A stretch of DNA of 64,000 nt from Bilabrum cf. latius (GCA_965178125.1 OZ237735.1:186001-250000); one strand, 5' to 3'. Numbered from the stretch's first letter, positions 5,006-62,715 are shown. Notes: generated by a model not told the origin, from the sequence alone. Made by a program: numbers and translations.

Positions 5006-8000
5006 TCACGTACCCGCCGCAGCGGCGGTCGAGTCCCCCGCGGCAGCACCCCCTGCAGCCGCCGCCCCGCTTCCCACTGCGTCCCCCGGCCCCGCCCCGG
5101 CACCCTGGCTCCTCTGCTGCGCCAGAGAAAGGAGACTCTCCTCCCCGTGCGCAGCAAGCGCCCGCTCGTCGTACTCGTCCGAGGACTTGAAGAAGATCCT
5201 GGCCGCGTACGTCGAGAACTGCAGCGCCCTGAACTCGTCGATCTGCGCCTGCAGCCTCCTCCCCCGGAACTGGAGAGTCTGCACGTCCTGCGCCTCCACG
5301 CGGGTCTTGGGCTGCCCGATCTTGCGCAGCTGCTCGGCGGCCTGCTGCCTCTCCTTGACGAACTTTTGCTCGACCGACTCGAACCAGTGGAGGCTTCCAA
5401 AGGCCCGGTTCTGCCGCAGCACCGAAAGGAAGAATGCCACGCCCATGGCGAATCCGTCGTCCACAAAGTACGCCACGCGGCCCTTGCCCGCCTTGTCCAG
5501 CGACTGCTTCGCGTCCCTGAGTGCCTTTGTGAAGGACAGTGTCAGCGCAGGCACGAGGTAAGCGAAGCCCTTCCAGTGGGACTCCTTCTGCTTGCGGCTC
5601 CTGTCGTCGTCCTTCCTGTCGTGGATGCCCTCCTTGATCGCGCCCTGGAAGATCTCAACCAGCAGCTGAAAGAAATCGATGTCCCGAGAGAAATTGCGGT
5701 GCAGCTCTTCCACCACAGCGTCCAGCACCCCGGCCGCCCCAAGCGTGTCCGCGCTCAGGTCGCGAGCCTCCGGGTCGCGGGGCCCGGCGCTGCTCTAATG
5801 CCCGCCCTCGCCCTCGCCCTCACCCTCGCCGGACTTGCCCTCCTCCTCGCCACCGGCCCCGGCTCCCGACGCCGCGCCGCCAGCGGCCCCCTCTGCACCC
5901 CCTGCCTTGTGGTGAGAGGCGCCCTGCACTCCCTGCGAGGCCCCCGCCCGCATGCCCACGAACCCTCCCCGCTGGGCCGCCTGCAGGAAGGACACTCGGC
6001 TGGCCGCCATGCCGCCCGCGCCCGCCTCGTCCTCCTCGTCGCTGTCCGAGTCCTCCCCCAGCCGAGCCGCCTGCTGCTCCTCGCGCTCCAGCCGCGTGGT
6101 GCCCGCCACTATCTTGGCGTCCAGCGCCATGTCGCCCAGGTTGGGCAGGAATTGGATGGAGCTGGCCGTGTGCCGCATCGTGGCGGATCGCACGGTGCGC
6201 ACGAAGGCCAGCGCGTTGCCTATCCGGGAGATGAGGATCCTGCACTTGTCGAGGGGAGACAGGGGGTCCTCCCTCTTGCCGTGCTTCTGCATGGTCTTGA
6301 CGAAGGCCTCGGCGTGGTCGACGGGGTACAGCCCGTCGAGCTTCCTCCTCGCCTTCTTGTACCACCTGCGCTCCTTGGACAGGTAGGACCGGGTGATGGC
6401 GTCGTTGAGAAACGCAGACATGAGCTGCACCTGCTTGGTCAGGTAGCGGTACGCGTTGGTGACCACTGTGTTGACGATGCCCAGCCCGTGCTGCCGGATG
6501 GACGAGGCCACCGAGTGGATGCTGACCGTGTTCATGTGCTTGGACCCGCGCTGGGACCTGCGCTCGATGAAGAGCTGGTCGTAGAGGCTGTAGTTGTAAT
6601 TGCTCACGAACACGCTGAGCTTGCGCATGATCTGCAGCACGTCCACGCTCGTGTCGAGTGAGCCCATGGGCAGGTGGCTCTCGGCCAGCTCCAGGCCGTA
6701 CTTGTCAGAGGCGAGCGCGGCCATCTCGCCGTACGTCTTCCAGTCGTGCAGCGCCACCGTCGTTGCCTCGTAGAAGCGCTGCTCCAGGAATGTCTGCACG
6801 CACTCCCGGATGCTGAGCTCCCGCTGCACGATGCGCAGAGGCGGCAGCGCCAGGATGTGCGTGGGGACCTTGAGCGCCCCGCGCGCCGCGCCCGAGGCCG
6901 ACTTGGGGTTGGGCGGAGACCTGTGCTGGATGAGGACGTAGTGCACGTGCACCCGGAGGTCGCTCTCCACTGCCATGCTCAGCGGCTGCACCAGCTCGTC
7001 CTGCACGCAGCCCCACATGAACTCCTATAGGCTCTCCACCATGCTGCCGCTGGACCGGCCGCCGCCGGCCGCAGAGGCGCCGGCGCCCGAGGCGGGCTCC
7101 GCGGCGCTGGCAGGCCCCGCCGGCCCCAGGTGGCAGGCCAGCATGAGCTGCGGCACACAGTCGGCGAAGGCCGCCAGCAGCATGGGCAGCCTCCGTGCGA
7201 GCTTTGGGGTCTGCCCGTGGTGCTTGAGGACGTGCGGCAGGATGTCCCTGACGTGGTACAGGGCAGAGCAGTCGCAGCTGTCCTGCACCACCTGCTGCAG
7301 CGTGCACAGGTTGGTGATCTCGAAGAAGCACTGCCCCAGCACGCGCCGGGCCCCCGCGTCGACCGGCGAGCTGGGCTGCGCCAGCACGCTGGAGCCGAGA
7401 GACAGCAGGCTCCTTCTCTGGCTCGAGTAGGACTCCGTGCCCAGCAGCAGGTCCTCCACCGCGGTGAGGGCAGTGACGATGGTGGCGGCCTCCCGGCTGC
7501 GCTGCTGCCTGTCCATGATCAGTTTGGCGGGCTGGAGGGCCTTGACGGCACGCGCGGCCGCCTCCCTTACGATGATGGGGAGGGAGAGGGCCATCTCCGG
7601 GGCGATCCTGCGGATGGTAGCCTCGAGGGCCTTGAGCGCCAGCACCACGCGCACGAGGCACACCACGTCGTTCACCTTGAAGGGCTTCTCCAGGTGGTGC
7701 TGCAGCGCCAGAAAGTCGTCCATGAGACGACGGCCGGCGCTGGCTGCCATCACCGCCTGCACCACCAGGTTGCCCCGCTCCCCCAGCACCGTCTCAGATT
7801 TATCCGGTGCGTCTGGCACCATGGGCGCCTCCGCGAACATCATGTCGGCCCGCAGCATCCAAGCGCTCACACGCACAAAGAGAGCCTGGGAGCGGGCCGG
7901 CAGCGCGGCGCACAGAGCTGCGTGGCACCTCTCCCTGTGCGCCTCAGGGTCCTCCGGCTGCAGCTTGCGGCTGCTCAGTGGTATCTTGCAGTGCTGCTCG

Positions 8001-9557
8001 AGGAACTCGTCGGGCAGAAAGACGGCCAGCCCATGCATGCCCACCACGGGTACCTTGCCCAGAGCGGACCACAGCTTGCGGAAGACGGTCTCGTCGGGGC
8101 GGGTGCCCGAGGGAGGCGTCAGTGCCCGCTCCAGCGCGTACAGCCCGCACGCGCCCACGTAGATGTGCCTCTCGTCCGTCTCCGTGTCGCTGCCGATCGC
8201 GTCCACGGCTGCCACCGCAAGCTGGGTCACGGCCGCCCGGAACTCACGGAGGAACTCGGCGGACCCCACGTCCACCACGGTGCCCTGCTCCGTGGGCCGC
8301 CGGAAGTTCTGCCGCAGCACCGTGCTCACGGCGCCCTGCTCGAAGAGGTCCCGACCGATGCCAGCTAGCAGACGCTCAAGGGCGGCGGCCTTTGTTGCGT
8401 CGATGCCCAGGGCGGCTTGGCGCTCTGCCCCGGCAATCCCCTGCGCCGCCCGCTTGTATCGGTCCCACGCATCGGCGAGGAGCTCGTTCTGGCTGCGTGC
8501 AGGTGGATGGGTGGGTGGATGATAGGCATGGTAAGGAGACGGGGTTTGGGGGGAGCGGGGCTCATGGTGGTAGCGGTGAAAATCAATCAGTGAGCGGATG
8601 AGCCAGGAGAGAGAGGGAGAGAGCAGCTGATGCATGCACGCCAATCGATGCAGGGCTCACTCGATCACGCAGTCGATGGCAATCAGGGCGTGGAAGAGGT
8701 CGGCAGCGCACCGAAATACCCGCGAGAGCCGCACGTCCTTCCAAGCCCCGTAGAGCGGCGAGTCTTTGTTGTAGAGCGAGGCCAGCTGGTGCACCAGGTT
8801 GCAGGTGATCTCCTCGGACCGCAGGATGAAGTTGCGGAGGTCCTGCAGCATAGGGACGGTCCTGCCCATGAAGGAGGTGAGCACGCCGTCGGACCACTCT
8901 CGGTCCGAGCCATCCGAGGCCAGCCCGAAGAGGGACAGGGGAGGGAGGAAGTCCTGCCGGGCCTTCCGGGCCAGCTCCTCCATCTCCTTGGAGAGCGCCG
9001 TGAACACCAGGAGGATCTGCGGACTCAGGGGGACGCCAGGAAGAGCGCGCATCTTGAAATGATTGGCCATTGGATGGTGATGCGGCATCGTTCGTGAACA
9101 AAACCAATCTGTACTCACCTTTCGAGTAATCGAGTGGCTGACATCGGCATCCACCAGGTCCGGGATCGACACGCGATCTTCTGGATGCAGGACAACACCA
9201 ATGGGATCAGTCTGCGCAAATGTGATTAAAAAGTAATACTGGTGCACGATCGTACAGTACTTAACTCCAACTTTGGTGTGCATCTGCAATGCCTTGTCCA
9301 GACTTACGCCGTCCGGTTGCACATGGTAGAGGCTTGCGGTAGCAGCTTCCAGCAGCTCTTCCAATTTGTCCTGCGAACGATTGATATGAAAGAGCACGCT
9401 TGCAGATATGCAGCAGAAGATCATAACTGCGCAGAATCTGCCACAATCGTAGGCTCACGGCGTGATCTTTCCCAAGATCGATTAGATCCTCCAGGTGGTC
9501 CGCAGTCGGATCATCCTGAGGCTCATTATTTTCGAAGGGCGAGAAGTTGCTGGCCAT
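5006..9557 (-). CDS. WASHC4: WASH complex subunit 4 (SWIP/KIAA1033 homolog), spliced
   Basis: Conserved blocks ESDLRVHVH, FYEATTVALHDWKTYGEM, SIRQHGLGIVNTVVTNAY, IGNALAFVRTVRS, YFVDDGFAMGVAFFL, FGSLHWFESV, ARIFF. Predicted introns 9371-9458, 9212-9271 (weak donor), 9017-9118, 8493-8660. In-frame TAGs at 7025 and 5795. Ends TGA. Confidence 0.9.
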
Positions 9558-10026: not shown

Positions 10027-11829
10027 TCAATCCACGACATGGACCTTACTCATGTGCCTGCTGAGTGAGTCTGCCCGCCCAAAGCGCTTCCCGCACACGC
10101 TGCACTCGTGCTTGCGCTCCCCAAGATGCACTGCGCTCATGTGAGTCTTGAGATGGCCTGATACTCCAAACCGCTTCCCGCACACGATGCACTCGTGCTT
10201 GCGCTCCCCAAGATGCACTGCGCTCATGTGAGTCTTGAGATTGCCTGCCTCCCCGAAGCGCTTCCCGCACACGCTGCACTCGTGATTGCGCTCCCCAAGA
10301 TGCACCGCGCTCATGTGAGTCTTGAGATGGCCTGATACTCCAAACCGCTTCCCGCACACGCTGCACTCGTGATTGCGCTCACCATAATGCACCAAGCTCA
10401 TGTGCTTCTTGAGATTGCCTGACACTCCAAAGCGCTTCCCGCACACGCTGCACTCGTGATTGCGCTCCCCAAGATGCACTGCGCTCATGTGAGTCTTGAG
10501 TGAGCCTGACACTCCAAAGCGCTTCCCGCACACGCTGCACTCGTGATTGCGCTCCCCAAGATGCACTGCGCTCATGTGAGTCTTGAGATGGCCTGATACT
10601 CCAAACCGCTTCCCGCACACGCTGCACTCGTGCTTGCGCTCCCCAAGATGCACCAAGCTCATGTGAGTCTTGAGATTGCCTGCCTCCCCGAAGCGCTTTC
10701 CGCACACGCTGCACTCGTGATTGCGCTCCCCAAGATGCACTGCGCTCATGTGAGTCTTGAGATTGCCTGACACTCCAAACCGCTTCCCGCACACGCTGCA
10801 CTCGTGCTTGCGCTCCCCAAGATGTACTGCGCTCATGTGCTTCTTGAGATTGCCTACCTCCCCGAAGCGCTTTCCGCACACGCTGCACTCGTGATTGCGC
10901 TCCCCGAAATGCACCGTGCTCATGTGCTTGTTGAGTGAGCCTGACACTCCAAACCGCTTCCCGCACACGCTGCACTCGTGCTTGCGCTCCCCAAAATGCA
11001 CTGCGCTCATGTGAGTCTTGAGATTGCCTGCCTGCCCGAACCGCTTCCCGCACACGCTGCACTCGTGATTGCGCTCCCCAAGATGCACCGTGCTCATGTG
11101 AGTCTTGAGATGGCCTGACACTCCAAACCGCTTCCCGCACACGCTGCACTCGTGCTTGCGCTCCCCGAGATGCACCGTGCTCATGTGAGTCTTGAGATCG
11201 CCTGCCTGTCCGAACCGCTTCCCGCACACGCTGCACTCGTGATTGCGCTCCCCAAGATGCACTGCGCTCATGTGCTGCTTGAGATGGCCTGACACTCCAA
11301 ACCGCTTCCCGCACACGCTGCACTCGTGCTTGCGCTCCCCAAGATGCACCACGGACACGTGATTCCTCAAGCTCCACATCGAGCTCAGCACCTTCCCGCA
11401 CACCTCACACTCATGCCCACCCCCACCTCCATTGGACCCTCCCTCCCCCCGGCGCCTCTTCGCCTTCCTTTCACCGGTCTCGCTGACTCCCCTGCCGCGC
11501 TTCTGCCCGGCCGAGTGAGGGGCTGGATGGGGCCCACTTACACTAGGGATTGGCGATTGCGTACCCTTAGTGACCGGCTGATAGAATCTGCCAGTGCTGC
11601 CCGACCTCGCAGGTGAGTCTCCACCAACGCCAGCGCCAGTCGATGCTGCAGTCTGCCTGACAGCAAATCCAGCCGAGCTGCCCATCTTGTGCCTATCTCG
11701 CTGCTGGGATGACACTGCATTGTCAGCATCACTGCTCCAATCATCGTCACTGCCCTCGCTGCCAGCGCCATCGCTGTCGCTGTCGCTCACGAGGTCAATC
11801 ACTTCTGGCTCGGCGTCCTTTCGCGCCAT
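10027..11829 (-). CDS. Tandem C2H2 zinc-finger array protein, 16 fingers (copy 1)
   Basis: ATG 11829 (MARKDAEPEVIDLVSDSD), basic KAKRRR, then 16 units of 29 aa (87 bp), HECSVCGKRFGxxGxLKxHMSxVHxGERx. Ends TGA. Confidence 0.92.
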   Translation of the reverse strand: MARKDAEPEVIDLVSDSDSDGAGSEGSDDDWSSDADNAVSSQQRDRHKMGSSAGFAVRQTAASTGAGVGGDSPARSGSTGRFYQPVTKGTQSPIPSVSGPHPAPHSAGQKRGRGVSETGERKAKRRRGEGGSNGGGGGHECEVCGKVLSSMWSLRNHVSVVHLGERKHECSVCGKRFGVSGHLKQHMSAVHLGERNHECSVCGKRFGQAGDLKTHMSTVHLGERKHECSVCGKRFGVSGHLKTHMSTVHLGERNHECSVCGKRFGQAGNLKTHMSAVHFGERKHECSVCGKRFGVSGSLNKHMSTVHFGERNHECSVCGKRFGEVGNLKKHMSAVHLGERKHECSVCGKRFGVSGNLKTHMSAVHLGERNHECSVCGKRFGEAGNLKTHMSLVHLGERKHECSVCGKRFGVSGHLKTHMSAVHLGERNHECSVCGKRFGVSGSLKTHMSAVHLGERNHECSVCGKRFGVSGNLKKHMSLVHYGERNHECSVCGKRFGVSGHLKTHMSAVHLGERNHECSVCGKRFGEAGNLKTHMSAVHLGERKHECIVCGKRFGVSGHLKTHMSAVHLGERKHECSVCGKRFGRADSLSRHMSKVHVVD

Positions 11830-12316
11830 TGTAGCAGTCAGCCTTGGCCACACGAGGACCGCAAACGTATTTGAAATAGTTCTGGGTGACTAAGTTCCAA
11901 AAAGGGTCTAGGCCTCGGGACTCCTCGCGCAATAACTCGTTGGATCCGTGCTTGAGTCCTCCTGTATGCACTTTATCACCCTTGCAGACAAGCCCAGCAA
12001 CACAGTACGCGGAGTTGTACAAGTTCCGAATCAAAATGACGCCTAGCAGTGGTGTGAAAATGGGATGGAACCGCTACAGCCAGTGACACTGGCCCTGCGT
12101 CTCAAGTCGACTCTCGACGCCGGCCGGGCGGGGCGGTTTTAATCTTCTTCTTGAAAGGCGGGGCGGTTGCAACAGACAGGCAACTTGAAGATTCGGGACG
12201 CCGGGACGTGGGAGGGTGTAGTGAATGCAGTAGGTCATTCACTGAGCCAAACGAATCCCATATGCAACCTGAATCATCCGCCTGCAAGTCCAAAGCAATC
12301 AAGGCCCCTTCCCAGC

Positions 12317-13897
12317 TCACACACCGGCCGGCATCACGTACAGCGGAGCATCAGACAGCTGCACGGTCACGCACTGCACCCCCTGCACCCCAGCGCTATC
12401 GCCCTGCCGCACAGCAGTGACCCCGCCCCGCACGCCAAGCCCCTCCCTATCGACCTTGCCCCCAAGTCCCTCGGCGCCCCCGCACGGCCCCGCGATCACT
12501 GCCCCCAGCGGGCCCCCCGTGTACGACAGCAGCAGGTACTTGCCCACGGCCCCCTGCAGCTGCACACTGGGGGCACTCGGGAGCGTCTCGTTCGAATTCA
12601 CGGGCATCCACGCGGCGAAGGCAGGCTGCTGCTTGCCCTCCAAAGGGGGGTACCTGAGTGCCACCCCGGGGGCGGTTGGGGTGCTCACGTTGAGGATGGA
12701 GGGGCGGCTGTACGGCCCCAGCTGGCGCAGGGCGGCCACTGCGGAGCGGTATGACGTCAGCGGCTGGAAGTCCGCGTGGGTCACGATGCCGAACCTGCAC
12801 TCTCTGTCTGTCGGGTCCGTGCAGTCCCTGTGCCAATCGTACCACACGTTCAGGGGCGAGCCCAGCGCGTGCAGGTAGAGCCACTCCCTGGCGATGTACT
12901 TGGACTGCGTCTCGTTGGACACGGGGTGCCAGCAGGACCCGAAATCGCAGGTGGTGTACCCCCACTCCCCCGAGGCAACGCGGGGCGCCTCTCCCTCACC
13001 GTGCCAGTGCGAGTCCACGAGCGCCTGCAGGCTGTGGAGCTCCTCCTCGACGTGCTCGGGAGGCGTTGACTGGTATAGGTGCTGCGTGACCACGTCAATG
13101 TACTGCAGGGGCTGCCCCGGACTGGCGAAGAACTCGTCCAGCCACGTGTAGAGCTCGTCGCCGTGCTGCGCAAGGGCGGGTGCGACCAGGCGCACCTTGG
13201 CCGTGGCGGGGTCGCTGCGAATGGCCTTGCCGATGGCCACGATGAGGGCAGCATCTGCCGTGCAGTTATTTGGCATTTTCTTCAGGTTTGGCTCATTCAC
13301 TTGCTCGAACCCATAGAATGCGTCGTGATCCTTGTAGCGCAGCGCCGCGGCGTGCATCACCTTTGCCAGGGCGTCGAGGCTGGATGGCTTGGTCGGGATG
13401 GGGTCATCAGGATACACGTGGGGATTTTGCGGGTGCAGAACCCCAGAGGTCTTGTACGTCGATCGACGCGAGCTTGTCGAACAGCTTATCGTAAAAGGAC
13501 CAATCGTACTGGCCTGGCGACTTCTCGATGACACCCCAGTCAAAGCCTACGACAGAAAGTGCAAATGGAAAAAGTATGCATCCTGGATCACACGTTCTAC
13601 TCGAGGCGGGCGAATCCCAGAGGGAAAAAAAAACTCTACGACTAGCTGCATGGATTGGTCAGAGTGTGTTACCACACCACGAGGATGCTACACTCATGGA
13701 TCCAATGTCACATGAGACTGACCTGTGCGAATCCTTTTGACCCCAAGGCCTTTGAATGAGTCGAACTCCACGTCGCTGGGCAGCTTGTCGTACAGTCCCC
13801 AATGGATGTTGATGGCTGCAGTTTCATGCAAAGTGAGGCTGTTATTCGCCGCACTTGCCGCAGCAAGTGCACTGAGTAGTATTATAAGCAGAGGCAT
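12317..13897 (-). pseudogene. Secreted clan GH-A (GH5/GH39-like) glycoside hydrolase, copy 1, with a +1 frameshift
   Basis: Near-identical to copy 2, with intron 13547-13722. Near 13440 it reads CTCTGGGGTTCTG versus CTCTGGCTTCTG in copy 2. The spliced length of 1405 nt is not a multiple of 3. It could be a G-run assembly error. Confidence 0.65.
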
Positions 13898-14073
13898 TCG
13901 GTGAATGGGCTGCCGAATCAACGAACTTGGAAAATGATGGAGGCCTCGGCGCCGTTGAATCCGGTATTAGCGCAGCCCGGCCGGGCTTCGCCGACGATAG
14001 ACAGCCGGATCAAACATGGGGATTGACACCCAAATGTACCAGAAACAGTGGGTTCGAAAAAGCAACAGGCACA

Positions 14074-15222
14074 TCAACCCACGTCGCTGTCTTTCGTCGA
14101 TGCACTCGTGCTCGCCAAGCCGCGGGCTGTGTGGTGCACTGTGCTCATGTGAGTCTTGAGATGGCCTGACACTCCAAACCGCTTCCCGCACACGCTGCAC
14201 TCGTGATTGCGCTCCCCGAAATGCACCAAGCCCACGTGAGTCTTGAGTGAGCCTGCCCGCCCGAAGCGCTTCCCGCACACGCTGCACTCGTGATTGCGCT
14301 CCCCAAAATGTACCGTGCTCATGTGCCTCTTGAGATTGCCTGACACTCCAAACCGCTTCCCGCACACGCTGCACTCGTGCTTGCGCTCCCCGAGATGCAC
14401 CAAGCCCATGTGAGTCTTGAGTGAGCCTGCCTGTCCAAAGCGCTTCCCGCACACGCTGCACTCGTGATTGCGCTCCACCAAATGCACCGCGCTCATGTGC
14501 CTCTTGAGATCGCCTGCCTCCCCAAACCGCTTCCCGCACACGCTGCACTCGTGATTGCGCTCCCCATGATGCACCGCGCTCATGTGCCTCTTGAGATGGC
14601 CTGCCTCCCCGAAGCGCTTCCCGCACACGCTGCACTCGTGCTTGCGCTCCCCATGATGCACCGTGCTCATGTGAGTCTTGAGTGAGCCTGCCTGCCCGAA
14701 GCGCTTCCCGCACACGCTGCACTCGTGCTTGCGCTCCCCGAGATGCACCACGGACACGTGCTGCCTCAAGCTCCACATCGAGCTCAGCACCTTCCCGCAC
14801 ACCTCACACTCATGCCCACCCCCACCTTCATTGGACCCTCCCTCCCTCCGGCGCCTCTTCGCCTCCCTTGCACCGGTCTCGCTGACCCCCCTGCCGCGCT
14901 TCTGCCCGGGCGAGTGAGGGGCTGGATGGGGCCCACTTGCACTAGGGATTGGCGATTGCGTACCCCTAGTGACCGGCTGATAGAATCTGCCAGTGCTGCC
15001 CGACCTCGCAGGTGCGTCTCCACCAACGCCAGCGCCAGTCGATGCTGCAGTCTGCCTGACAGCAGATTCAGCCGAGCTGCCCATCTTGTGCCTATCTTGC
15101 TGCTGGGACGACATAGCATTGTCAGCATCACTGCCCCAATCATCGTCACTGCTCTCGCTGCCAGTGCCATCGCTGTCGCTCACGAGGTCAATCACTTCTG
15201 GCTCGGCGTCCCTTCGCGCCAT
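14074..15222 (-). CDS. Tandem C2H2 zinc-finger array protein, 8 fingers (copy 2)
   Basis: Paralog of 10027-11829 with a near-identical N-terminus (MARRDAEPEVIDLVSDSD) and 8 fingers. Ends TGA. Confidence 0.9.
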   Translation of the reverse strand: MARRDAEPEVIDLVSDSDGTGSESSDDDWGSDADNAMSSQQQDRHKMGSSAESAVRQTAASTGAGVGGDAPARSGSTGRFYQPVTRGTQSPIPSASGPHPAPHSPGQKRGRGVSETGAREAKRRRREGGSNEGGGGHECEVCGKVLSSMWSLRQHVSVVHLGERKHECSVCGKRFGQAGSLKTHMSTVHHGERKHECSVCGKRFGEAGHLKRHMSAVHHGERNHECSVCGKRFGEAGDLKRHMSAVHLVERNHECSVCGKRFGQAGSLKTHMGLVHLGERKHECSVCGKRFGVSGNLKRHMSTVHFGERNHECSVCGKRFGRAGSLKTHVGLVHFGERNHECSVCGKRFGVSGHLKTHMSTVHHTARGLASTSASTKDSDVG

Positions 15223-15670
15223 TGTAGCAGTCAGCCTTGGCCACACGAGGACCGCAAACGTATTTGAAATAGTTCTGGGTGGCTTAGTTCCAAAAAGGGT
15301 CTAGGCCTCGGGACTCCTCGCGCAATAACTCGTTGGATCCGACCTCCTGTATGCACTTTATCACCCTTGTAGACAAGCCCAGCAACACAGTACGTGGTGT
15401 TGTACAAGTTCCGAATCAAAATGACGCCTAGTAGTGGTTTGAAAATGGGTTGACTGCAACAGCCAGTGACACTGGCCCTGCGTCTCAAGTCGACTCCCGA
15501 CGCCGCCGGCGGCGGAGCGGTTGCAACAGACAGGCAACTTGAAGATTCGGGACGCCGGGACGTGGGAGGGTGTAGTGAAGGCAGTAGGTCATTCACTGAG
15601 CCAAACAAATCCCATATGCAACCTGAATCATCCGCCTGCAAGTCCAAAGCAATCAAGGCCCCTTCCCAGC

Positions 15671-17439
15671 TCACACACCGGCCGGCATCACGTACAGCGG
15701 AGCATCAGACAGCTGCACGGTCACGCACTGCACCCCCTGCACCCCAGCGCTATCGCCCTGCCGCACAGCAGTGACCCCGCCCCGCACGCCAAGCCCCTCC
15801 CTATCGACCTTGCCCCCAAGCCCCTCCCTATCGACCTTGCCCCCAAGTCCCTCCCTATCGACCTTGCCCCCAAGCCCCTCCCTATCGACCTTGCCCCCAA
15901 GCCCCTCCCTATCGACCTTGCCCCCAAGTCCCTCCCTATCGACCTTGCCCCCAAGCCCCTCCCTATCGACCTTGCCCCCAAGCCCCTCCCTATCGACCTT
16001 GCCCCCAAGTCCCTCGGCGCCCCCGCACGGCCCCGCGATCACTGCCCCCAGCGGGCCCCCCGTGTACGACAGCAGCAGGTACTTGCCCACGGCCCCCTGC
16101 AGCTGCACACTGGGGGCACTCGGGAGCGTCTCGTTCGAATTCACGGGCATCCACGCGGCGAAGGCAGGCTGCTGCTTGCCCTCCAAAGGGGGGTACCTGA
16201 GTGCCACCCCGGGGGCGGTTGGGGTGCTCACGTTGAGGATGGAGGGGCGGCTGTACGGCCCCAGCTGGCGCAGGGCGGCCACTGCGGAGCGGTATGACGT
16301 CAGTGGCTGGAAGTCCGCGTGGGTCACGATGCCGAACCTGCACTCTCTGTCTGTCGGGTCCGTGCAGTCCCTGTGCCAATCGTACCACACGTTCAGGGGC
16401 GAGCCCAGCGCGTGCAGGTAGAGCCACTCCCTGGCGATGTACTTGGACTGCGTCTCGTTGGACACGGGGTGCCAGCAGGACCCGAAATTGCAGGTGGTGT
16501 ACCCCCACTCCCCCGAGGCAACGCGGGGCGCCTCTCCCTCACCGTGCCAGTGCGAGTCCACGAGCGCCTGCAGGCTGTGGAGCTCCTCCTCGACGTGCTC
16601 GGGAGGCGTTGACTGGTATAGGTGCTGCGTGACCACGTCAATGTACTGCAGGGGCTGCCCCGGACTGGCGAAGAACTCGTCCAGCCACGTGTAGAGCTCG
16701 TCGCCGTGCTGCGCAAGGGCGGGTGCGACCAGGCGCACCTTGGCCGTGGCGGGGTCGCTGCGAATGGCCTTGCCGATGGCCACGATGAGGGCAGCATCTG
16801 CCGTGCAGTTATTTGGCATTTTCTTCAGGTTTGGCTCATTCACTTGCTCGAACCCATAGAATGCGTCGTGATCCTTGTAGCGCAGCGCCGCGGCGTGCAT
16901 CACCTTTGCCAGGGCGTCGAGGCTGGATGGCTTGGTCGGGATGGGGTCGTCAGGATACACGTGGGGATTTTGCGGGTGCAGAAGCCAGAGGCCTTGTACG
17001 TCGATCGACGCGAGCTTGTCGAACAGCTTGTCGTAAAAGGACCAATCGTACTGGCCTGGCGACTTCTCGATGACACCCCAGTCAAAGCCTACGACAGAAA
17101 GTGCAAATGGAAAAAGTATGCATCCTGGATCACACGTTCTACTCGAGGCGGGCGAATCCCAGAGGAAAAAAAAAACTCTACGACTAGCTGCATGGATTGG
17201 TCAGAGTGTGTTACCACACCACGAGGATGCTACACTCATGGATCCAATGTCACATGAGACTGACCTGTGCGAATCCTTTTGACCCCAAGGCCTTTGAATG
17301 AGTCGAACTCCACGTCGCTGGGGAGCTTGTCGTACAGTCCCCAATGGATGTTGATGGCTGCAGTTTCATGCAAAGTGAGGCTGTTATTCGCCGCACTTGC
17401 CGCAGCAAGTGCACTAAGTAGTATTATAAGCAGAGGCAT
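15671..17439 (-). CDS. Secreted clan GH-A (GH5/GH39-like) glycoside hydrolase, copy 2, intact, 530 aa
   Basis: Signal peptide MPLLIILLSALAAASA. Intron 17089-17264 (GTCAGT...TAG) joins KRIRTG-FDWGVIEKSPGQYDWSFYDKL. Acid/base motif EQVNEPN and nucleophile motif SGEWGY. Spliced length 1593 nt; ends TGA. Confidence 0.85.
15790..16005. repeat. 27-bp coding minisatellite x8 (GGKVDREGL) in GH copy 2
   Basis: Unit CAAGYCCCTCCCTATCGACCTTGCCCC occurs 8 times. Copy 1 has a single unit near 12436-12462. Confidence 0.95.
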
Positions 17440-17937
17440 TCGGTGAATGGGCTGCCGAATCAACGAACTTGGAAAGTGATGGGAGGCTTCGGCGCCGTTA
17501 AATCCGGTATTAGGGCTTCGCCGACGATAGACAGCCGGATCAAACATGGTGATTGACACCCAATTGTACCAGAAACAGTGGGTTCGAAAAAGCAACAGGC
17601 GCATCAACCCACGTCGCTGTCTTTCGTCGATGCACTCGTGCTCGCTAAGCCGCGGGCTGTGTGGTGCACCGTGCTCATGTGCCTCTTGAGATTGCCTGAC
17701 ACTCCAAACCGCTTCCCGCACACGCTGCACTCGTGATTGCGCTCCCCAACATGCACCAAGCTCATGTGCTTTTGAGATGGCCTGCCCGCCCGAAGCGCTT
17801 CCCGCACACGCTGCACTCGTGCTTGCGCTCCCCGAAATGCACTGTGCTAATATGCGTCTTGAGTGAGCCTGCCTCCCCGAAGCGCTTCCCGCACACGCTG
17901 CACTCGTGCTTGCGCTCCCCATGATGCACGGTGCTCA

Positions 17938-19914
17938 GCGGCATACAGCAGGCGTAGCTCCGCCGTTAGCAATGCTGACTGGGGGCTAGAGTGCATCTCC
18001 CACTCTACTGAACCACTCTACTGCGTTTTATGCCGCTGCCTCTAGATCAGGTTGCTCACCCGTTTCCTATCGTGGGGTCGATGCCCCATGAGACCCTCGC
18101 TTGCCCCTGACCCCCGCTTGCCCCTGTTGGGGCTCAGACGCAGACCCCCGCTTACCCCTGACGGACCTCCGCCAGCAGAATGGTGCTGGCGGAGGTCCGG
18201 CTGTGTCCTTGCTCGCTTACAAGCCTGTTTGGATTCCGCCGCTGTTGTGGACGATCCTACTGCAGAGGAACAAGCAGCTGCATCGCCCCAATCGACGTCT
18301 TGCTGGCGGTCAACACACGGCGGATTGAGTCGCTTTCTCTTTCGTCCCGCTGACATTCCAGGTACAGTGCTGGTCTCCACCACATTGCCGGGAGCCTAAG
18401 ACTCAACGTCTCGGCCAGCCCCAGCAACAGCCCCACGCCCAGCGTCTCGGCCAGCCCCAGCAACAGCCCCATGCCCAGCGTCTCGGCCAGCCCCAGCAAC
18501 AGCCTCACGCCCAGCCCCACGCCCAGCAGGTATAACTTCCTTGCCGGCATCTGCGAGCGCATTGATAAGATAGTTCTTAGATGCCGTGTACAACGACGCG
18601 TGATCTCAGAGGCAAATTCGCGTGCATCCTGATTTCTACAGACCTTACCACACGAACAAGATGCAAAATGGTTCAGTATGCATTTATACAAGTTACTCCA
18701 CTCCATCAGGCTCCACTATTTACCACAAACGCAGGTTAATCGTCTCGATGTAATGACGGTGGCTTCTTGCTACCTTGCAAGGCAGGCGAACGCAATATTT
18801 GTCCAGAGCACAAATGCCTGATTGCTCTATGTAACAGCATTGATCTTATCTCGTAGTTTTGCGAGCTACTGTTGCAAAAATTGCTCAATTTTCCTGACTA
18901 CCAAGAGCGGTAGCACATCATCCGGATGTGCTCTTTCGTATCGAAGGAGAAGTAGCATGTGTTTTCTACTAGGCCGACCAATATCGATCTGATTTCGGCT
19001 AATAAACGAATTCAGCGACATGAATAATTTCCACGGGGGGATACTCTGCACTCTGATTCTTCTTGCTTTTTGAAGATGCGATCACTTCTAGTTATACCTC
19101 ATTCTAGCGCACAAAAGTGCACGTAACTATACCGGGGAGCTCGGCTCACCGGCACCCACAAATAATAGCAAAGAAGCATACAATAGTACCAAGTGAGAGC
19201 TTCCTAGCAAGACAATTGGACCAGATCAGTTGATCTAATCCGATTATCTTCTTGCCTCTCTCAACGGCTCCTTATTGTGTTCTTTATCTCCCTTTGAGAG
19301 AGGGCTGTGTGTTGTTGCCGTGTAGTGTCCGTTCAGCCACCTGGCTGGCTTCCCGGTTAGTGTGGGGCCGCCTCGGTGTGGACAGCCTGGCCTACCCCGT
19401 TGGTTTACGTTGTAGGTACTCCCTTCTTGTTGGTTTCTCCTGGGGCTTCGCCGAATGCACCCCAGGCTGCCTTTCGGCTCGCCGATGGCACCCGCTCACG
19501 CGGTTCGACGCGAACCACCACCACCTTGTGTAGTAAACAAGTGCAACCTAGAATGGGGCTCGTCACTGACCGCGCTACAGTTGACTAAACCTTGCGGTAC
19601 CGTTCGTCGTTGGGCTCATTCGGCCCAGTCTCCCCCAACCAGACGCACTATCCCAGCCTCCTACTCCCGCCCCTTCACTTCTCATCAACTCCGTGTGGCA
19701 GCCGGCTGACCCTTTAGCCGCCCGGTCCGGGCACAGTCCCGCGAACGTAGCTCTGGGAGCATGGGCAGCAATGCTGGCAGCCGTTATCGAATCTACCGCT
19801 AGTAAGCGGGACTTGTTCCGCTGCCAGTACACACCGCCAACAAACGCTCGGCGACGCTTGCGGTCTCGATCGTCGTGTCCACCACGTCCGCCTGGCAGGT
19901 CCGCGATTCCATAT
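17938..19914. other. Unrelated ~2-kb segment with a low-GC core (~18530-19290) interrupting ZF copy 3
   Basis: Similarity to the paralogs stops at 17937 and resumes at 19915. Two 60-nt lines in the core count at 37-38% GC, well below the GC-rich flanking genes. Confidence 0.7.
18408..18515. repeat. 36-bp tandem repeat x3
   Basis: GTCTCGGCCAGCCCCAGCAACAGCCYCAYGCCCAGC occurs three times. Confidence 0.9.
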
Positions 19915-20487
19915 CCCTAGTGACCGGCTGATAGAATCTGCCAGTGCTGCCCGACCTCGCAGGCGCGTCTCCACCAACGCCAGCGCCAGTCGATGCTGCA
20001 GTCTGCCTGACAGCAGACCCAGCCGAGCTGCCCATCTTGTGCCTATCTTGCTGCTGGGACGACATAGCATTGTCAGCATCACTGCTCCAATCATCGTCAC
20101 TGCTCTCGCTGCCAGCGCCATCGCTGCCGCTGTCGGTCACGAGGTCAATCACTTCCGGCTCTACATCCCTTTGCGCCATCGCAGTAATGAACACTGTCCG
20201 AAATGTGGATGCGCAATCCCTTGAAATAGTGTTGTATGGCTTTATTGCCAAGGGTCTAGGCTCGACTCCAAATGCTCCTTGCTCTCAAGTCTCGTCACCA
20301 GGCACGGCAATTTACCTTGCAGACAAACCCGGCGGCGTACAAGGCGGCGCCAAATCAGTTCAAAAGTTCTATGGACACCCAAGCTGATGAGCAAATGGTC
20401 TTTGAGAAGTGCCCTGTTTCGTTTGCCGGTTGTAACTGCGCACTGCATGATGACCACTTCTTGATGAGAGCTGGAAGAACCTGAACG

Positions 20488-23400
20488 ATGCGATTAGAAT
20501 ATGCTGTAGCTGCAGCAGTCGTCCTAGCGGGTACCAACGTGAGCGGCTGCTGGGTGCGCTTTGGGGCTCCCACGGCGGGGTCCATAAATGGGGTCGCACT
20601 GTGCAGGCCGACAGATGTCCTCAGCGAAGAGACAGCGGTGCTACCGGCATTGGGGATCTACGAAGTGCCTGCTTTAGTATTTCAGCTCAAGCTAGCTGGG
20701 GATAGATCCCAGTGCAGGTCAAGGCAGCGCCGGTGGGAGGATCACACGATGGGAGACTTTGAGACTGCATAGTTCAAAGTTGAGCACATGATTTGCAGTG
20801 GCGGTAGGCAGGATGGTCTATGCGCTGCATAGTTTCGCCTCGAAGGAGTCCCACCTTGCACGACGGTCCGGGCATCCGGTTCTATCGGCTCGGATGCCTC
20901 CCCAGCCAACACAACTTCTGTTGCTGCAAGCGGCTCTAAATCCAGCCCCAAGGACGGCAAGCAGTTCATAAATGCATCGTTTGCTACACCTGCTGAGGCA
21001 GGAAGCTACAGCTACCTGCGTTTCTTCGCGATGGCGTGTGCCAGGACAGGATCCTAGCACTCGGTGTTTCGAGCCATGGCGCGGGCGAGTGGCGACGCTC
21101 TCTTCGGGATCCACATGGGCGACGCCGTGTACTTGGATGAGAGAGCAAATTCCAGCGCCAGCTTCGTGCGCGCCTTCCGGTAGCAGCTGGAGAGCCCGAC
21201 CCAAGCAGAGATGCTCGCCCATCTGCCCATCGAGCACGTCTACTCGGACCACGACTTCGGAGGGAACAACGCGCACGGGGGCAGCGCGTCGGGGGACGCC
21301 GCCGTGGCCGCGCACATTGCCTTCCTGCCCGCCCCCGCCACCCCGACCCTCCCTCCGGCTGGAGACGCCGCCGGCTCCGAAGCACAGGCCTACCTGACGC
21401 ACCCGTGCCTGCACTGGAAGAAGGCGGGGCAGGTGCGCCTCGTGGTGCCAGGGGGGCCCAAGGGATAGCCAGGGAACAACGCCACCGTGCGGTTGCTGCG
21501 GAGGTCCTGGGTTGAGTCTGCCCCGGCCTGCAACTCGATGGTCCTGGAGGCCTCCTTGGCCAGGACCCGGCCGATTCAAGAGCAGGACGGGCCGGGCGGA
21601 CGCGTTGGGGCCAGTGCTGGCGCTGGCGGAGTTGCAGTCGGCCGGGCCGGCTCCACGGCATCGCGCGCGCACCGCGGCCCGCGAGGCATGCAGCGCGCCT
21701 TTTCGGTGAACAGAGTGCGTTTCATCGTGACGGATCTGAGGCGGTTCCGAGACAAGAACTACGCGCCTGATGCGGGATAGGACAAGGGAGCCGCCGCCAG
21801 CAGTGGGAGCACGGCCAGAAACATTAAGACCATGCTCGGGCAGGAGCAGAAAGAGTGGTTCCTCCGAGAAGTGCAGCGGTCCATCCTGTCTCATGTCCTC
21901 GTGGTGTGGGTGTCGGAGATCCCCTGGCTTTGCAGAGACGAGAAGTGGGGTTGGTTCAGGACAGAGAGGGACGAGCTCGTGCGGGCGCTAGTGGGCATGG
22001 GTGCGCATAGGCAGATGGTCATCCTGTCGGGGGATGCCCACATGCTGGGCATCGACGACGGGAGGCACTCCCCCGGGGGCATCCCCGTGCTGCACGCCGC
22101 CGCGCTGGACTCGCCCCCAAGTCTCAAAGGGGGCCCCTACTCCCACGGGGCCTCCCCTGGGCGGGGGCAGTTCGCGAGGCTGGAGGTGTGGGACGCGGGG
22201 ATCGATGTGGGCAGGATCCGAGAGGGCCTCCAGGAGGTGGCCAAAGAGGAGGGAAGGCGGTGGGCCTCCGTGGCGGACGCGGCCGCGGCCGCCGCCGAAG
22301 GCGAGATCAGCATATCCTTCGACGACGTGCCCCGATTCCATTGGGCCGACATGTACGCCAGCGGGGGTCAGGCATCGACCGGTGGCATCGACTCTCTCGC
22401 GGTGGACGGGACCTCCTCCATCCTGCCTGTTCCCTGGCACGTGATCCACGGGCAGCAGCACCGCGCCATGCTCACGGCGGGCGTGTGCCTCGAGTACCAC
22501 GGCTTTCAGGTGCATCGCAATGCGCTGCTGGGCGAGGCCAGCTCGGGTGACGTGGCGTAGGGGCAGCTGGGAGAGGATGTGCCGCCGGTGGCGGGGGCCT
22601 GGCACCCGGCGCAGGCCCCGCGCCTGGACAAGCCCAAGACCTGGGGGAATAAGAGCACGAGGGCATACCATGGAGTCTCCCGCGCGGTCCGTTATTCGAC
22701 CTGCGACATCCTCCCGAGCAAGGTGGCGGCCATGGCCACGGGCGTGAGGCTGCCTGCCTCTCCCGTGGCCCACGGCCGAGGCAAGGGGGAGGTACTCTCG
22801 AGGATGCTCCCGCCTCCCAGCCTCAAGGACAGAGTGAGGGGCACCTACGATTCGCCCCGCTCGGGCAAGCAGGCCGGGGCCGGCAGCCACGGCCCCATCC
22901 GATGGAAGGACTCGGGGCACACAGAGCTGGACGTGGACGAGTTCTGGGCCAGGGGAGGCGTCCGCGGGCTGGGACCAGACCTGCCCCTGGATGCCCCCGG
23001 GGCTCCCATGGACGGTGATGGGCTGTCCCCGCGGCAGCCGGGCATGTGGTCTTTCTCGCAGCTGGCCACTGCCGCGCGTCGGTGCGCTCTGGATGCTGAT
23101 GTGGGAGCCCGGTTCGCCCGCCGGATGCTCTGGAACCAGGCCTACGGCGGGCTCAGGGCGCTGCAGGACGGGCTGGCGGCAGCCATGGTGCAGGGGTACA
23201 GGCTGCAGTACTGGGTTTCCGGGGACCACACCTGCGCGGATGTGGTGCGAGCGTGCGCGACCGGTCGCCGAGTACCTACTGCCAGCTCGCCCGCCAAGCC
23301 GACGTCCTGGCAGAACACACTGGGCGAGCTGGCAGACCACGGCTGTGCGCCGAGGCCGCCCCTCGCCCTGTGGTCCGCGGCTGCGCGTGCTTCCGCGGCT

Positions 23401-62638: not shown

Positions 62639-62715
62639 GCCCTCTTAGCTCAGTCGGTAGAGCGGACGACTCTTAATCGTCAGGCCGCTGGTGAGAGCGT
62701 CGGCGGTGGACGCCA
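62639..62715 (+). pseudogene. Degenerate tRNA-Lys(CTT)-like sequence
   Basis: D-arm TAGCTCAGTCGGTAGAGC and anticodon stem-loop GACGA-CTCTTAA-TCGTC are intact. The T-loop lacks TTCGA and the acceptor stem has mismatches. It ends in CCA. Confidence 0.7.

What the first reader, a model, noticed from the sequence alone, without database searches (positions are those of the whole stretch)
10027..15222. PRDM9-like hypervariable zinc-finger minisatellites with variation at DNA-contact positions
Seen: the 87-bp finger units are almost identical in DNA, but helix positions -1 (V/Q/E/R), +3 (H/N/D/S) and +6 (T/K/R/Q) are shuffled. Finger number differs between otherwise near-identical paralogs (16, 8, at least 3). 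Known: these positions set C2H2 base specificity, and a homogenised scaffold with variable contacts is the hallmark of PRDM9 and young KRAB-ZFP arrays. Inference: a rapidly retargetable DNA-recognition system in a protist, possibly in conflict with transposons or viruses, or specifying recombination sites.
Basis: partly seen in the sequence, partly recalled or inferred. Interest (0 to 1): 0.78.

Follow-up and report, generated by a model that had tools for sequence, protein, structure and literature searches.

The report
Fast-evolving zinc-finger gene arrays, tandem paralogs
Three neighbouring copies of a gene for a many-fingered DNA-binding protein are built from 87-base repeats that reshuffle much faster than the DNA beside them, mostly at the residues that read DNA bases, a pattern best known from animal genes such as PRDM9.

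Summary
Gene A (10027-11829, minus strand) has 16 C2H2 fingers and gene B (14074-15222) has 8. A third copy, C, is a truncated, frameshifted remnant with about 3 fingers. Each finger is an 87-bp unit with C-x2-C-x12-H-x4-H spacing. Units are 84-99% identical in DNA, against 56-61% in an unrelated 3-finger gene of the same window.

Across 21 internal fingers, variation is enriched at helix positions -1, +3 and +6: only 3 of 3654 codon triples are as variable. The linker and a site between the two histidines also vary.

In the youngest duplicate pair the flank differs by 0.97% (19 of 1964 aligned bases) and the array by 11% (30 of 266). The arrays therefore turn over by unit exchange.

The N-terminal 138 residues (146-residue query) are disordered and have no detectable homologue. 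They carry a SUMO-interaction-like motif and a basic patch. No PR/SET or KRAB domain is present, so this is not PRDM9 or a KRAB-ZFP.

Strain polymorphism, expression, family size, targets and the organism could not be determined. My reading is a young lineage-specific Krüppel-type poly-zinc-finger family behaving as a coding minisatellite. The conflict and recombination roles remain untested.

The parts
10027..11829 (-). ZF gene A: ATG at 11829, stop at 10027-10029; 600 aa with 16 fingers and no intron needed
   Evidence: ORF list; coordinates of the start motif and fingers; Pfam zf-C2H2 E 1.6e-77
10027..11415 (-). Array A: 16 units of 87 bp. Finger 1 (11329-11415) is a divergent non-repeat-type finger and finger 16 (10027-10110) is a divergent terminal finger. 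Fingers 2-15 are of two unit types that alternate in A2-A9, implying a 174-bp dimer.
11416..11829 (-). N-terminal region of A (138 aa from the ATG). It is predicted disordered and no homologue was found.
   Evidence: AlphaFold2 single sequence: residues 31-135 pLDDT <50 with no secondary structure; Pfam none at E<=10; no hit in two protein searches
11770..11805 (-). SUMO-interaction-like motif: a V-I-D-L-V core followed by a Ser/Asp run. The core with its flanking E (E-V-I-D-L-V) is found in all three paralogs (B 15166-15198; C core 20138-20155).
   Evidence: Alignment of the three N-termini; coordinates; PIAS1 SIM given as VIDLT with core (I/V)DLT in PMC4907222 (passages). SUMO binding was not tested.
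11443..11502 (-). Basic patch (K-R-x...K-A-K-R-R-R), a probable nuclear localisation signal just before finger 1
   Evidence: Read from the translation. The function is inferred.
14074..15222 (-). ZF gene B: 382 aa from the ATG, 8 fingers (array 14119-14814)
   Evidence: Pfam zf-C2H2 E 5.1e-40
17604..17950 (-). ZF copy C, 3' fragment: remnant of one finger plus 3 fingers. The middle finger has a 1-bp deletion (frameshift). Its stop codon is homologous to B's.
   Evidence: Three-frame translation; alignment with B's 3' end
17951..19902 (.). About 1.95 kb unrelated to A or B, separating the two fragments of copy C. It contains 36-bp and 17-bp tandem repeats. No domain, terminal inverted repeat or second copy in the window was found.
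19903..20179 (-). ZF copy C, 5' fragment: the first 92 codons homologous to A and B, then reading into unrelated sequence to a stop at 19799
   Evidence: The junction at 19902/19903 is also present in contigs of two other public runs.
12317..13900 (-). Glycoside-hydrolase-like gene GH1 (clan GH-A TIM-barrel type) with a signal-peptide-like start. One contig lacks a 176-nt GT..AG intron at about 13547-13722. GH1 is part of the duplicated cassette.
   Evidence: Pfam Cellulase E 6.6e-4, below cut-off; Atlas feature hits to GH39/GH5 clusters at 0.95-0.97; joint in run X6
15671..17250 (-). GH2, 99.0% identical to GH1 over the aligned part. It has a 27-bp coding minisatellite (15789-16015, 8.4 copies) where GH1 has a 189-bp gap.

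Best explanation
This is a small, young, tandemly arranged family of Krüppel-type C2H2 poly-zinc-finger genes. A has 16 fingers, B has 8, and C is a truncated and frameshifted pseudogene. The genes were duplicated together with a neighbouring secreted-glycosidase-like gene as a cassette of about 3.4-3.5 kb.

Shown: each array is a coding minisatellite of 87-bp units of two types, which reflects an ancestral 174-bp two-finger repeat. The arrays change by exchange, duplication and loss of whole units and of short tracts within units (unequal crossing-over and gene conversion). They diverge about ten times faster than the flanking DNA. Amino-acid differences concentrate at helix positions -1, +3 and +6, while the zinc ligands and scaffold stay under purifying selection.

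Inferred: the proteins are a disordered N-terminus (a SUMO-interaction-like motif, an acidic Ser/Asp tract and a basic nuclear-localisation-like patch) followed by the array. They are most likely nuclear, sequence-specific double-stranded-DNA binders. Their specificity is re-tuned by array turnover, and their effector function runs through short linear motifs rather than a folded domain. The targets and biological role are unknown. Repression of mobile or viral DNA is one possibility, not a finding.
For: - Finger pattern is intact in 24 of 24 fingers of A and B.
- Pfam zf-C2H2 and zf-H2C2_2 score far above cut-off.
- AlphaFold2 gives beta-beta-alpha fingers at pLDDT 62-84.
- The closest solved chains are DNA-bound poly-ZF proteins: ZFP568 E 2.8e-51, Aart, CTCF and PRDM9 fingers E 3.5e-24. 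Each alignment has one extra residue per finger between the histidines.
- The linker has the canonical length of 7 residues (L-G-E-R-K/N-H-E).
- Unit DNA identity is 84-99%, against 56-61% among the fingers of the unrelated 3-finger gene at 60563-60802, which has the same spacing.
- Contact-site enrichment: 3 of 3654 triples and 9 of 22 state changes on 3 of 29 codons.
- Contact pN is about 2.1 times whole-unit pS; the rest of the unit is 0.27 times.
- There are 15 distinct -1/+3/+6 combinations in 21 fingers, and all four combinations of codon variants occur even between codons 15 and 18, which are 9 bp apart.
- Two-unit blocks are re-duplicated within A: A4-A5 against A13-A14 is 97.1% identical.
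- Flank 12157-14134 against 15511-17664 has 19 mismatches in 1964 aligned bases. The adjoining array 14135-14400 has 30 substitutions in 266 bases.
- In the last finger of B against C, 3 of 4 substitutions are in the +3 and +6 codons.
- Finger 1 of A against B is 97% identical, and two of its three differences lie in the +6 codon.
Against: - No evidence of transcription or of a protein was obtained.
- Array variation between strains was not measured, so 'hypervariable' rests on paralogs in a single assembly.
- The N-terminal region of A against B shows Nd 16 and Sd 3 (omega 1.7, 136 codons). This cannot be told from neutral drift and would also fit decaying genes.
- One of the three copies is already a pseudogene.
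- Any functional multi-finger array differs most at contact positions, so that enrichment alone does not show rapid or adaptive change.
- Per-codon pN/pS at the three contact codons is only 0.72-1.25 by Nei-Gojobori. That figure is unreliable because of multi-base codon differences.
- Non-contact sites (the residue between the His, and the first and last linker residues) are nearly as variable as +6.
- Val at -1 in 11 of 21 fingers is an unusual base-contact residue (my recollection, not tested).
- DNA binding, SUMO binding and nuclear localisation are all inferred.
Confidence: 0.7

Rival explanations
1. Neutral minisatellite churn in genes that are losing function. The repeats recombine because they are repeats. 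The contact-site variety is old variation among ancestral units being reshuffled, and no adaptive retargeting is taking place.
For: - Copy C is truncated and frameshifted.
- N-terminal omega for A against B is 1.7, with only 3 synonymous changes, so it cannot be told from neutrality.
- No homologue of the N-terminus exists anywhere searched.
- The proteins are absent from the 15-billion-protein collection by exact look-up.
- The same locus shows another expanding minisatellite, the 27-bp repeat in GH2.
Against: - Scaffold codons show pN at 0.27 of pS across units.
- All zinc ligands are intact in 24 of 24 fingers, and the ORFs of 1.8 and 1.15 kb are open.
- Differences between recently separated fingers fall in contact codons: 3 of 4 in the last finger of B against C.
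Confidence: 0.2
2. A KRAB-ZFP-like defence: the proteins bind transposons or endogenous or infecting viral DNA and recruit silencing through SUMO-dependent partners, in an arms race that drives the array turnover.
For: - The mode of evolution matches that described for KZFP clusters and PRDM9: tandem paralogs, unit turnover and contact-site change.
- A SIM-like motif is conserved in 3 of 3 paralogs.
- The closest solved chain is the KRAB-ZFP ZFP568.
Against: - There is no KRAB or other repressor domain.
- No target was identified.
- No mobile element or viral gene was seen beside the genes in the ORFs scanned.
- No relative was found in viral contig collections.
- SUMO binding is untested.
Confidence: 0.15
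3. A PRDM9-like specifier of meiotic recombination sites.
For: Only the array's minisatellite behaviour and the contact-site variation.
Against: - No PR/SET methyltransferase, KRAB or SSXRD domain is present. These domains are named as required for PRDM9 function in abstracts listed.
- There is no room for extra upstream exons: about 490 bp lie between the stop of GH1 and the ATG of A.
- Three paralogs exist rather than one gene.
Confidence: 0.03
4. The fingers bind RNA or protein rather than double-stranded DNA.
For: - The H-x4-H spacing differs from the H-x3-H of the closest DNA-binding structures.
- Val at -1 occurs in 11 of 21 fingers.
- Pfam also reports zf-C2H2_jaz, with no separate stretch passing on its own.
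Against: - The Krüppel-type consensus (C-x2-C-G-K-x-F ... L ... H) and the 7-residue G-E-R/K-containing linker are those of DNA-binding arrays. The best PDB matches are all DNA complexes or DNA-binding factors.
- Variation sits where base contacts are made.
Confidence: 0.08

Closest known systems
PRDM9 zinc-finger coding minisatellite (vertebrates)
   Same: - A tandem array of near-identical finger-coding units.
- Unit number and order change quickly.
- Amino-acid change is concentrated at the DNA-contacting helix positions.
- Unit exchange rather than point mutation explains many differences.
- PRDM9 fingers match in sequence at E 3.5e-24.
   Different: - No PR/SET, KRAB or SSXRD domain.
- The unit is 87 bp (29 aa, H-x4-H), not 84 bp.
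- There are three tandem paralogs.
- Allelic hypervariability and a meiotic role are not shown.
KRAB zinc-finger proteins and other lineage-specific poly-ZF clusters of animals (recalled: ZAD-ZNF of insects, FiNZ of fish)
   Same: - Tandem gene duplicates with differing finger numbers.
- A pseudogenised member.
- Diversification at contact residues.
- Krüppel-type finger consensus.
- The best solved match is the KRAB-ZFP ZFP568, E 2.8e-51.
   Different: - The N-terminus is an orphan disordered region with only short motifs, not a KRAB, ZAD or FiNZ domain.
- Only 2 intact genes were seen.
- The genome context looks like a GC-rich unicellular eukaryote, not an animal. This is an inference.
- Targets are unknown.
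Ordinary conserved multi-finger C2H2 transcription factors (for example the 3-finger gene at 60047-61609 in this window)
   Same: The same ligand spacing (C-x2-C-x12-H-x4-H) and the same 87-bp period.
   Different: Its fingers are only 56-61% identical in DNA and show no sign of recent unit duplication. The arrays of A and B are 84-99% identical.

Membership tests
C2H2 (Krüppel-type) zinc-finger proteins | Cys2-His2 ligand pattern in every repeat | tested here: met
   C-x2-C-x12-H-x4-H in 16 of 16 fingers of A and 8 of 8 of B
C2H2 (Krüppel-type) zinc-finger proteins | Profile match above the curated threshold | tested here: met
   PF00096 at 252 bits (A) and 134 bits (B) against a cut-off of 25.2; PF13465 at 283 and 150 bits against a cut-off of 40
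C2H2 (Krüppel-type) zinc-finger proteins | Beta-beta-alpha fold | tested here: met
   AlphaFold2 single-sequence model: two short strands plus a helix in each of 4 fingers, pLDDT 62-84
C2H2 (Krüppel-type) zinc-finger proteins | Seven-residue TGEKP-type linker between fingers | tested here: inconclusive
   The linker is 7 residues, L-G-E-R-K/N-H-E. The length and the G-E-basic core match, but T and P are absent. The TGEKP consensus is recalled.
PRDM9 | PR/SET methyltransferase domain | tested here: not met
   No SET-family hit among the families listed for A or B or on the N-terminal regions at E<=10
PRDM9 | KRAB and SSXRD domains | tested here: not met
   No Pfam family on 3 of 3 N-terminal regions; no homologue in 1.84 billion representatives
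PRDM9 | Zinc-finger array encoded by a minisatellite with change at contact residues | tested here: met
PRDM9 | High allelic diversity of the array within a species; meiotic function | not testable with these tools
   No genome is held.
KRAB zinc-finger proteins | N-terminal KRAB domain | tested here: not met
KRAB zinc-finger proteins | Binding to transposable elements | not testable with these tools
   No genome and no binding data
Coding minisatellite | Head-to-tail units of 10-100 bp with high identity, in frame, with copy number differing between copies | tested here: met
   87-bp units; 14.6, 7.1 and 3.2 copies by TRF; 16, 8 and about 3 fingers
SUMO-interacting-motif proteins | Hydrophobic core (V/I)-x-(V/I)-(V/I) flanked by acidic or phosphorylatable residues | tested here: met
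   A V-I-D-L-V core followed by a Ser/Asp run in 3 of 3 paralogs. PIAS1 SIM VIDLT is given in PMC4907222.
SUMO-interacting-motif proteins | Binding to SUMO | not testable with these tools
   No SUMO sequence of this organism is in hand

The most novel reading that the evidence does not exclude
This is an independently evolved, non-animal counterpart of the KRAB-ZFP/PRDM9 principle. A unicellular eukaryote keeps a family of poly-zinc-finger genes whose coding minisatellites are re-targeted by unit shuffling under diversifying selection. Effector function is supplied by a short SUMO-interaction motif instead of a folded domain, and the proteins are aimed at mobile or viral DNA. This would contradict the published view that such diversification of C2H2 fingers is exclusive to metazoans (PMC5588721, abstract and passages).
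Probability: 0.15. Interest if true: 0.8.

Novelty: new variant of a known kind. Interest (0 to 1): 0.5.

Why it matters
Rapid diversification of C2H2 finger arrays has been described as a metazoan speciality. Najafabadi et al. [quoted passage not shown]

The window shows the same evolutionary machinery in what looks like a GC-rich unicellular eukaryote: homogenised units, unit turnover and contact-site change. It is attached to an N-terminus with no known domain. If the genes are expressed and polymorphic, they would be a simple system of two intact genes for studying how a coding minisatellite re-targets a DNA-binding protein. They would also be an independent test of the arms-race explanation outside animals.

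If the genes are silent, the locus is just a decaying young duplicate and of little interest.

Tried and rejected
- **Family size.** No whole genome is held for the window, so family size was not measured.
- **Homologues of protein A.** Whole protein A gave 2311 matches at E<=0.001 among 8000 scored candidates. The 120 listed are generic poly-ZF proteins, nearly all from animals, with best identity 53%. None covers the N-terminus.
- **Homologues of the N-terminus.** Residues 1-146 gave none in the word-index search (lengths 334-1064 only) and none at E<=0.001 among 1.84 billion representatives.
- **Exact look-up.** 4 of 4 versions of proteins A and B are not in the collection.
- **Organism.** It was not identified. 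A search with the WASH-subunit ORF using 'longer' lengths found nothing. Two Atlas look-ups gave family but no useful taxon.
- **Other collections.** Metagenome scans by peptide patterns and by a 26-base unit core found nothing. Viral contig scans found nothing.
- **Earlier findings of this scan.** None.
- **Sequencing runs.** 9 runs from 5 studies hold part of 11330-14130, and no RNA holder is listed.
- **Reads.** Array length in other strains was therefore not examined. Apparent differences in finger 1 in runs X3, X6 and X8 equal paralog B's sequence, so they are cross-mapping and not alleles. Parts of the stretch without cover in some runs are not interpreted.
- **Per-codon pN/pS.** The values at the contact codons (0.72-1.25; 1.13) were set aside as unreliable, because several codon pairs differ at 2-3 bases.
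- **A-C and B-C dN/dS.** These rows include non-homologous columns and are not used.
- **The 1.95-kb stretch inside copy C.** No Pfam family (one hit at E 0.23), no terminal inverted repeats and no second copy in the window. 'Transposon insertion' is therefore not supported.
- **RNA families.** Rfam gave only one tRNA.
- **Literature.** Six searches listed no paper describing such arrays outside animals. I saw titles and abstract starts only, and supplements were not consulted.
Full report
**What is there**

The minus strand between 10027 and 20179 carries three copies of one gene.

- Gene A (ATG 11829, stop 10027) encodes 600 residues with 16 fingers.
- Gene B (ATG 15222, stop 14074) encodes 382 residues with 8 fingers.
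- Copy C is in two pieces. A 3' piece (17604-17950) holds a finger remnant and three fingers. A 5' piece (19903-20179) holds the first 92 codons. About 1.95 kb of unrelated DNA lies between them.

Every finger of A and B (24 of 24) has the spacing C-x2-C-x12-H-x4-H, followed by a seven-residue linker. This gives a 29-residue, 87-bp period. Tandem Repeats Finder reports the three arrays with 14.6, 7.1 and 3.2 copies at 84-88% matches. Pfam zf-C2H2 and zf-H2C2_2 score far above their cut-offs.

**Is the pattern more than chance?**

I took the 21 internal fingers (A2-A15, B2-B8). I left out the divergent first fingers A1 and B1 and the divergent last finger A16.

- *Most variable positions by amino-acid entropy:* +3 (1.87 bits), -1 (1.65), the first linker residue (1.49), the residue between the two histidines (1.46), +6 (1.40), +1 (1.22) and the last linker residue (1.20). 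Position +2 is invariant Gly.
- *Enrichment:* of all 3654 ways to pick three of the 29 codons, 3 have an entropy sum as high as -1/+3/+6, and 4 have as high a nonsynonymous diversity.
- *State changes:* counting minimum state changes, 9 of 22 amino-acid changes sit on these 3 codons (binomial p 1.9e-4). The nonsynonymous-to-synonymous state ratio is 9:1 there against 13:12 elsewhere (Fisher p 0.039).
- *Diversity ratios:* nonsynonymous diversity at the three contact codons is about 2.1 times the synonymous diversity of the whole unit. For the other codons it is 0.27 times.

The base-contacting set (6, 3, 2, -1) is as given in PMC5588721 (passage). Three non-contact positions are almost as variable. 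And any working multi-finger array is expected to differ most at contact positions.

**How alike are the units?**

Mean DNA identity is 89.7% within A, 83.7% within B and 86.1% between A and B. Some pairs reach 98-99%, and A2, A8 and A10 are identical outside the helix codons.

As a control, the unrelated three-finger gene at 60563-60802 has the same ligand spacing and period, but its fingers are only 56-61% identical in DNA. Codon bias therefore does not explain the likeness.

The units fall into two types marked by linked synonymous differences. One type carries V-S at -1/+1 with linker Asn. The other carries Q/E/R-A with mostly linker Lys. The types alternate in A2-A9, which points to an ancestral 174-bp two-finger repeat. 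Two-finger blocks have been re-duplicated inside A: A4-A5 against A13-A14 is 97.1% identical.

There are 15 different -1/+3/+6 combinations among the 21 fingers. All four combinations of codon variants occur even between the +3 and +6 codons, which are 9 bp apart. This requires exchange within units or repeated mutation.

**The strongest evidence for fast array turnover comes from the paralogs**

The locus is a tandem duplication of a cassette made of the zinc-finger gene and a glycosidase-like gene. The order on the minus strand is C, GH2, B, GH1, A.

- The stretch 12157-14134 (GH1 plus B's 3' untranslated end) aligns with 15511-17664 with 19 mismatches in 1964 aligned bases (0.97%). The directly adjoining last three fingers (14135-14400) differ at 30 of 266 bases (11%) and by a 1-bp deletion in C.
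- In the last finger, 3 of the 4 substitutions are in the +3 codon (His to Asn) and the +6 codon (Thr to Arg, two bases). The new helix equals that of another unit (B6), as expected from a conversion patch.
- The next two finger pairs are not even of the same unit type.
- A and B are 95.3% identical in the N-terminal coding part and 94.8% upstream, and their first fingers are 97% identical. Fingers 2-8 compared position by position are only 79-92% identical, and the finger number is 16 against 8.
- B resembles A at its 5' end and C at its 3' end. This fits an unequal crossover inside the arrays. It is an inference, and the different divergence of the two halves (about 5% against about 1%) needs a later conversion or a second event.

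**The protein**

Upstream of the array lie 138 residues without any Pfam match at E<=10 in 3 of 3 paralogs. They have no relative in a word-index search and none at E<=0.001 among 1.84 billion representative proteins.

A single-sequence AlphaFold2 model gives no secondary structure and pLDDT below 50 for residues 31-135. It gives beta-beta-alpha fingers at pLDDT 62-84.

The region holds a V-I-D-L-V core followed by a Ser/Asp run, with the core conserved in all three paralogs. The SUMO-interacting motif of PIAS1 is given as VIDLT with core (I/V)DLT in PMC4907222 (passages). A K/R-rich patch precedes finger 1. SUMO binding and nuclear import are inferences.

There is no room for further upstream exons. 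About 490 bp separate the stop codon of GH1 from A's ATG.

The closest solved chains are DNA-bound poly-finger proteins: ZFP568 (E 2.8e-51), Aart, CTCF and PRDM9 fingers (E 3.5e-24). Each alignment needs one extra residue per finger between the histidines.

Between A and B the N-terminal region has 16 nonsynonymous and 3 synonymous differences (omega 1.7 over 136 codons). That is fast, but it cannot be told from neutral drift.

**Copy C**

Its middle finger has a 1-bp deletion, and its 5' piece reads into unrelated sequence to a stop at 19799. The stretch between the pieces has no domain, no terminal inverted repeats and no other copy in the window.

The junction at 19902/19903 is real. Contigs of two other public runs (X6, X8) carry the N-terminal part followed by 30 letters identical to window 19873-19902.

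**Context**

The window is 55-73% G+C. It carries:

- a WASH-complex subunit gene split by introns (5798-9454);
- a papain-family protease;
- an AnmK-like domain;
- a eukaryotic glycogen debranching enzyme;
- a MORN-repeat protein;
- an LRR plus ubiquitin-like protein;
- a second, ordinary C2H2 gene.

This fits a compact, GC-rich unicellular eukaryote. The organism was not identified.

**Public reads**

Nine runs from five studies hold part of 11330-14130.

- One run (X5) has a 1143-base contig identical to the window.
- Another (X3) differs by single bases and by a 27-bp deletion at 12130.
- One contig of X6 joins 13545 to 13722. It skips 176 bases with GT..AG ends on the minus strand, which is either a spliced GH1 transcript or an intron-less copy.
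- Several contigs share finger-1-like sequence but continue into other DNA, a hint of further family members.

**Comparison with what is known**

The mode of evolution is that of the PRDM9 minisatellite and of young KRAB-ZFP arrays. The abstracts listed describe the PRDM9 case and its required KRAB, SSXRD and SET domains. Membership in either family fails on the defining effector domains.

Najafabadi et al. 2017 state that C2H2 diversification is exclusive to metazoans and that non-metazoan C2H2 proteins evolve slowly (PMC5588721, abstract, passages). A survey of conserved C2H2 families in 124 eukaryotes says nothing about such arrays in protists (PMC3701560, passages). Six literature searches listed no report of a comparable non-animal case (titles and abstract starts only).

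**Verdict**

The functional part (conflict with mobile DNA, recombination) and allelic hypervariability are untested, and the PRDM9 label holds only as an analogy.

Noticed in passing
window 15789-16015 (GH2) against 12435-12470 (GH1): A 27-bp in-frame minisatellite (8.4 copies, 97% matches) encodes a repeated nine-residue motif near the C-terminus of GH2. GH1 has a 189-bp gap there. It is a second expanding coding repeat in the same cassette.
   Followed up: partly
window 13547-13722: One contig of public run X6 skips 176 bases with GT..AG ends on the minus strand. This suggests an intron between a signal-peptide-like first exon and the main exon of GH1, or an intron-less copy in that organism.
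   Followed up: partly
window 60047-61609 (+): A separate C2H2 gene has three fingers of the same C-x2-C-x12-H-x4-H spacing and 87-bp period, but only 56-61% DNA identity between fingers. It is flanked by poly-Ala, poly-Ser and poly-Gln tracts. The H-x4-H, 29-residue finger may be a lineage habit.
   Followed up: partly
window 12130: Run X3 lacks 27 bases in the intergenic stretch between A and GH1 and differs at scattered single bases, which shows strain-level variation at the locus.
   Followed up: no
window 5798-9454 (-): The WASH complex subunit (Pfam WASH-4_N and WASH-7_mid) is spread over at least three ORFs, so it has introns. It lies directly downstream of gene A.
   Followed up: no
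window 22561-24783 (+): A long ORF has an anhydro-N-acetylmuramic acid kinase (AnmK) domain, E 1.1e-19, in a eukaryote-like context.
   Followed up: no
window 11406-11417 (contig ends in runs X3, X5, X6, X8): Several contigs match finger 1 and then continue into sequences not in this stretch. This possibly marks further members of the family elsewhere in those genomes.
   Followed up: no
window 18393-18527 and 18092-18169: 36-bp and 17-bp tandem repeats lie inside the unrelated 1.95-kb stretch that splits copy C.
   Followed up: no
window 62639-62701 (+): A single tRNA gene is the only Rfam match at gathering score in the window.
   Followed up: no
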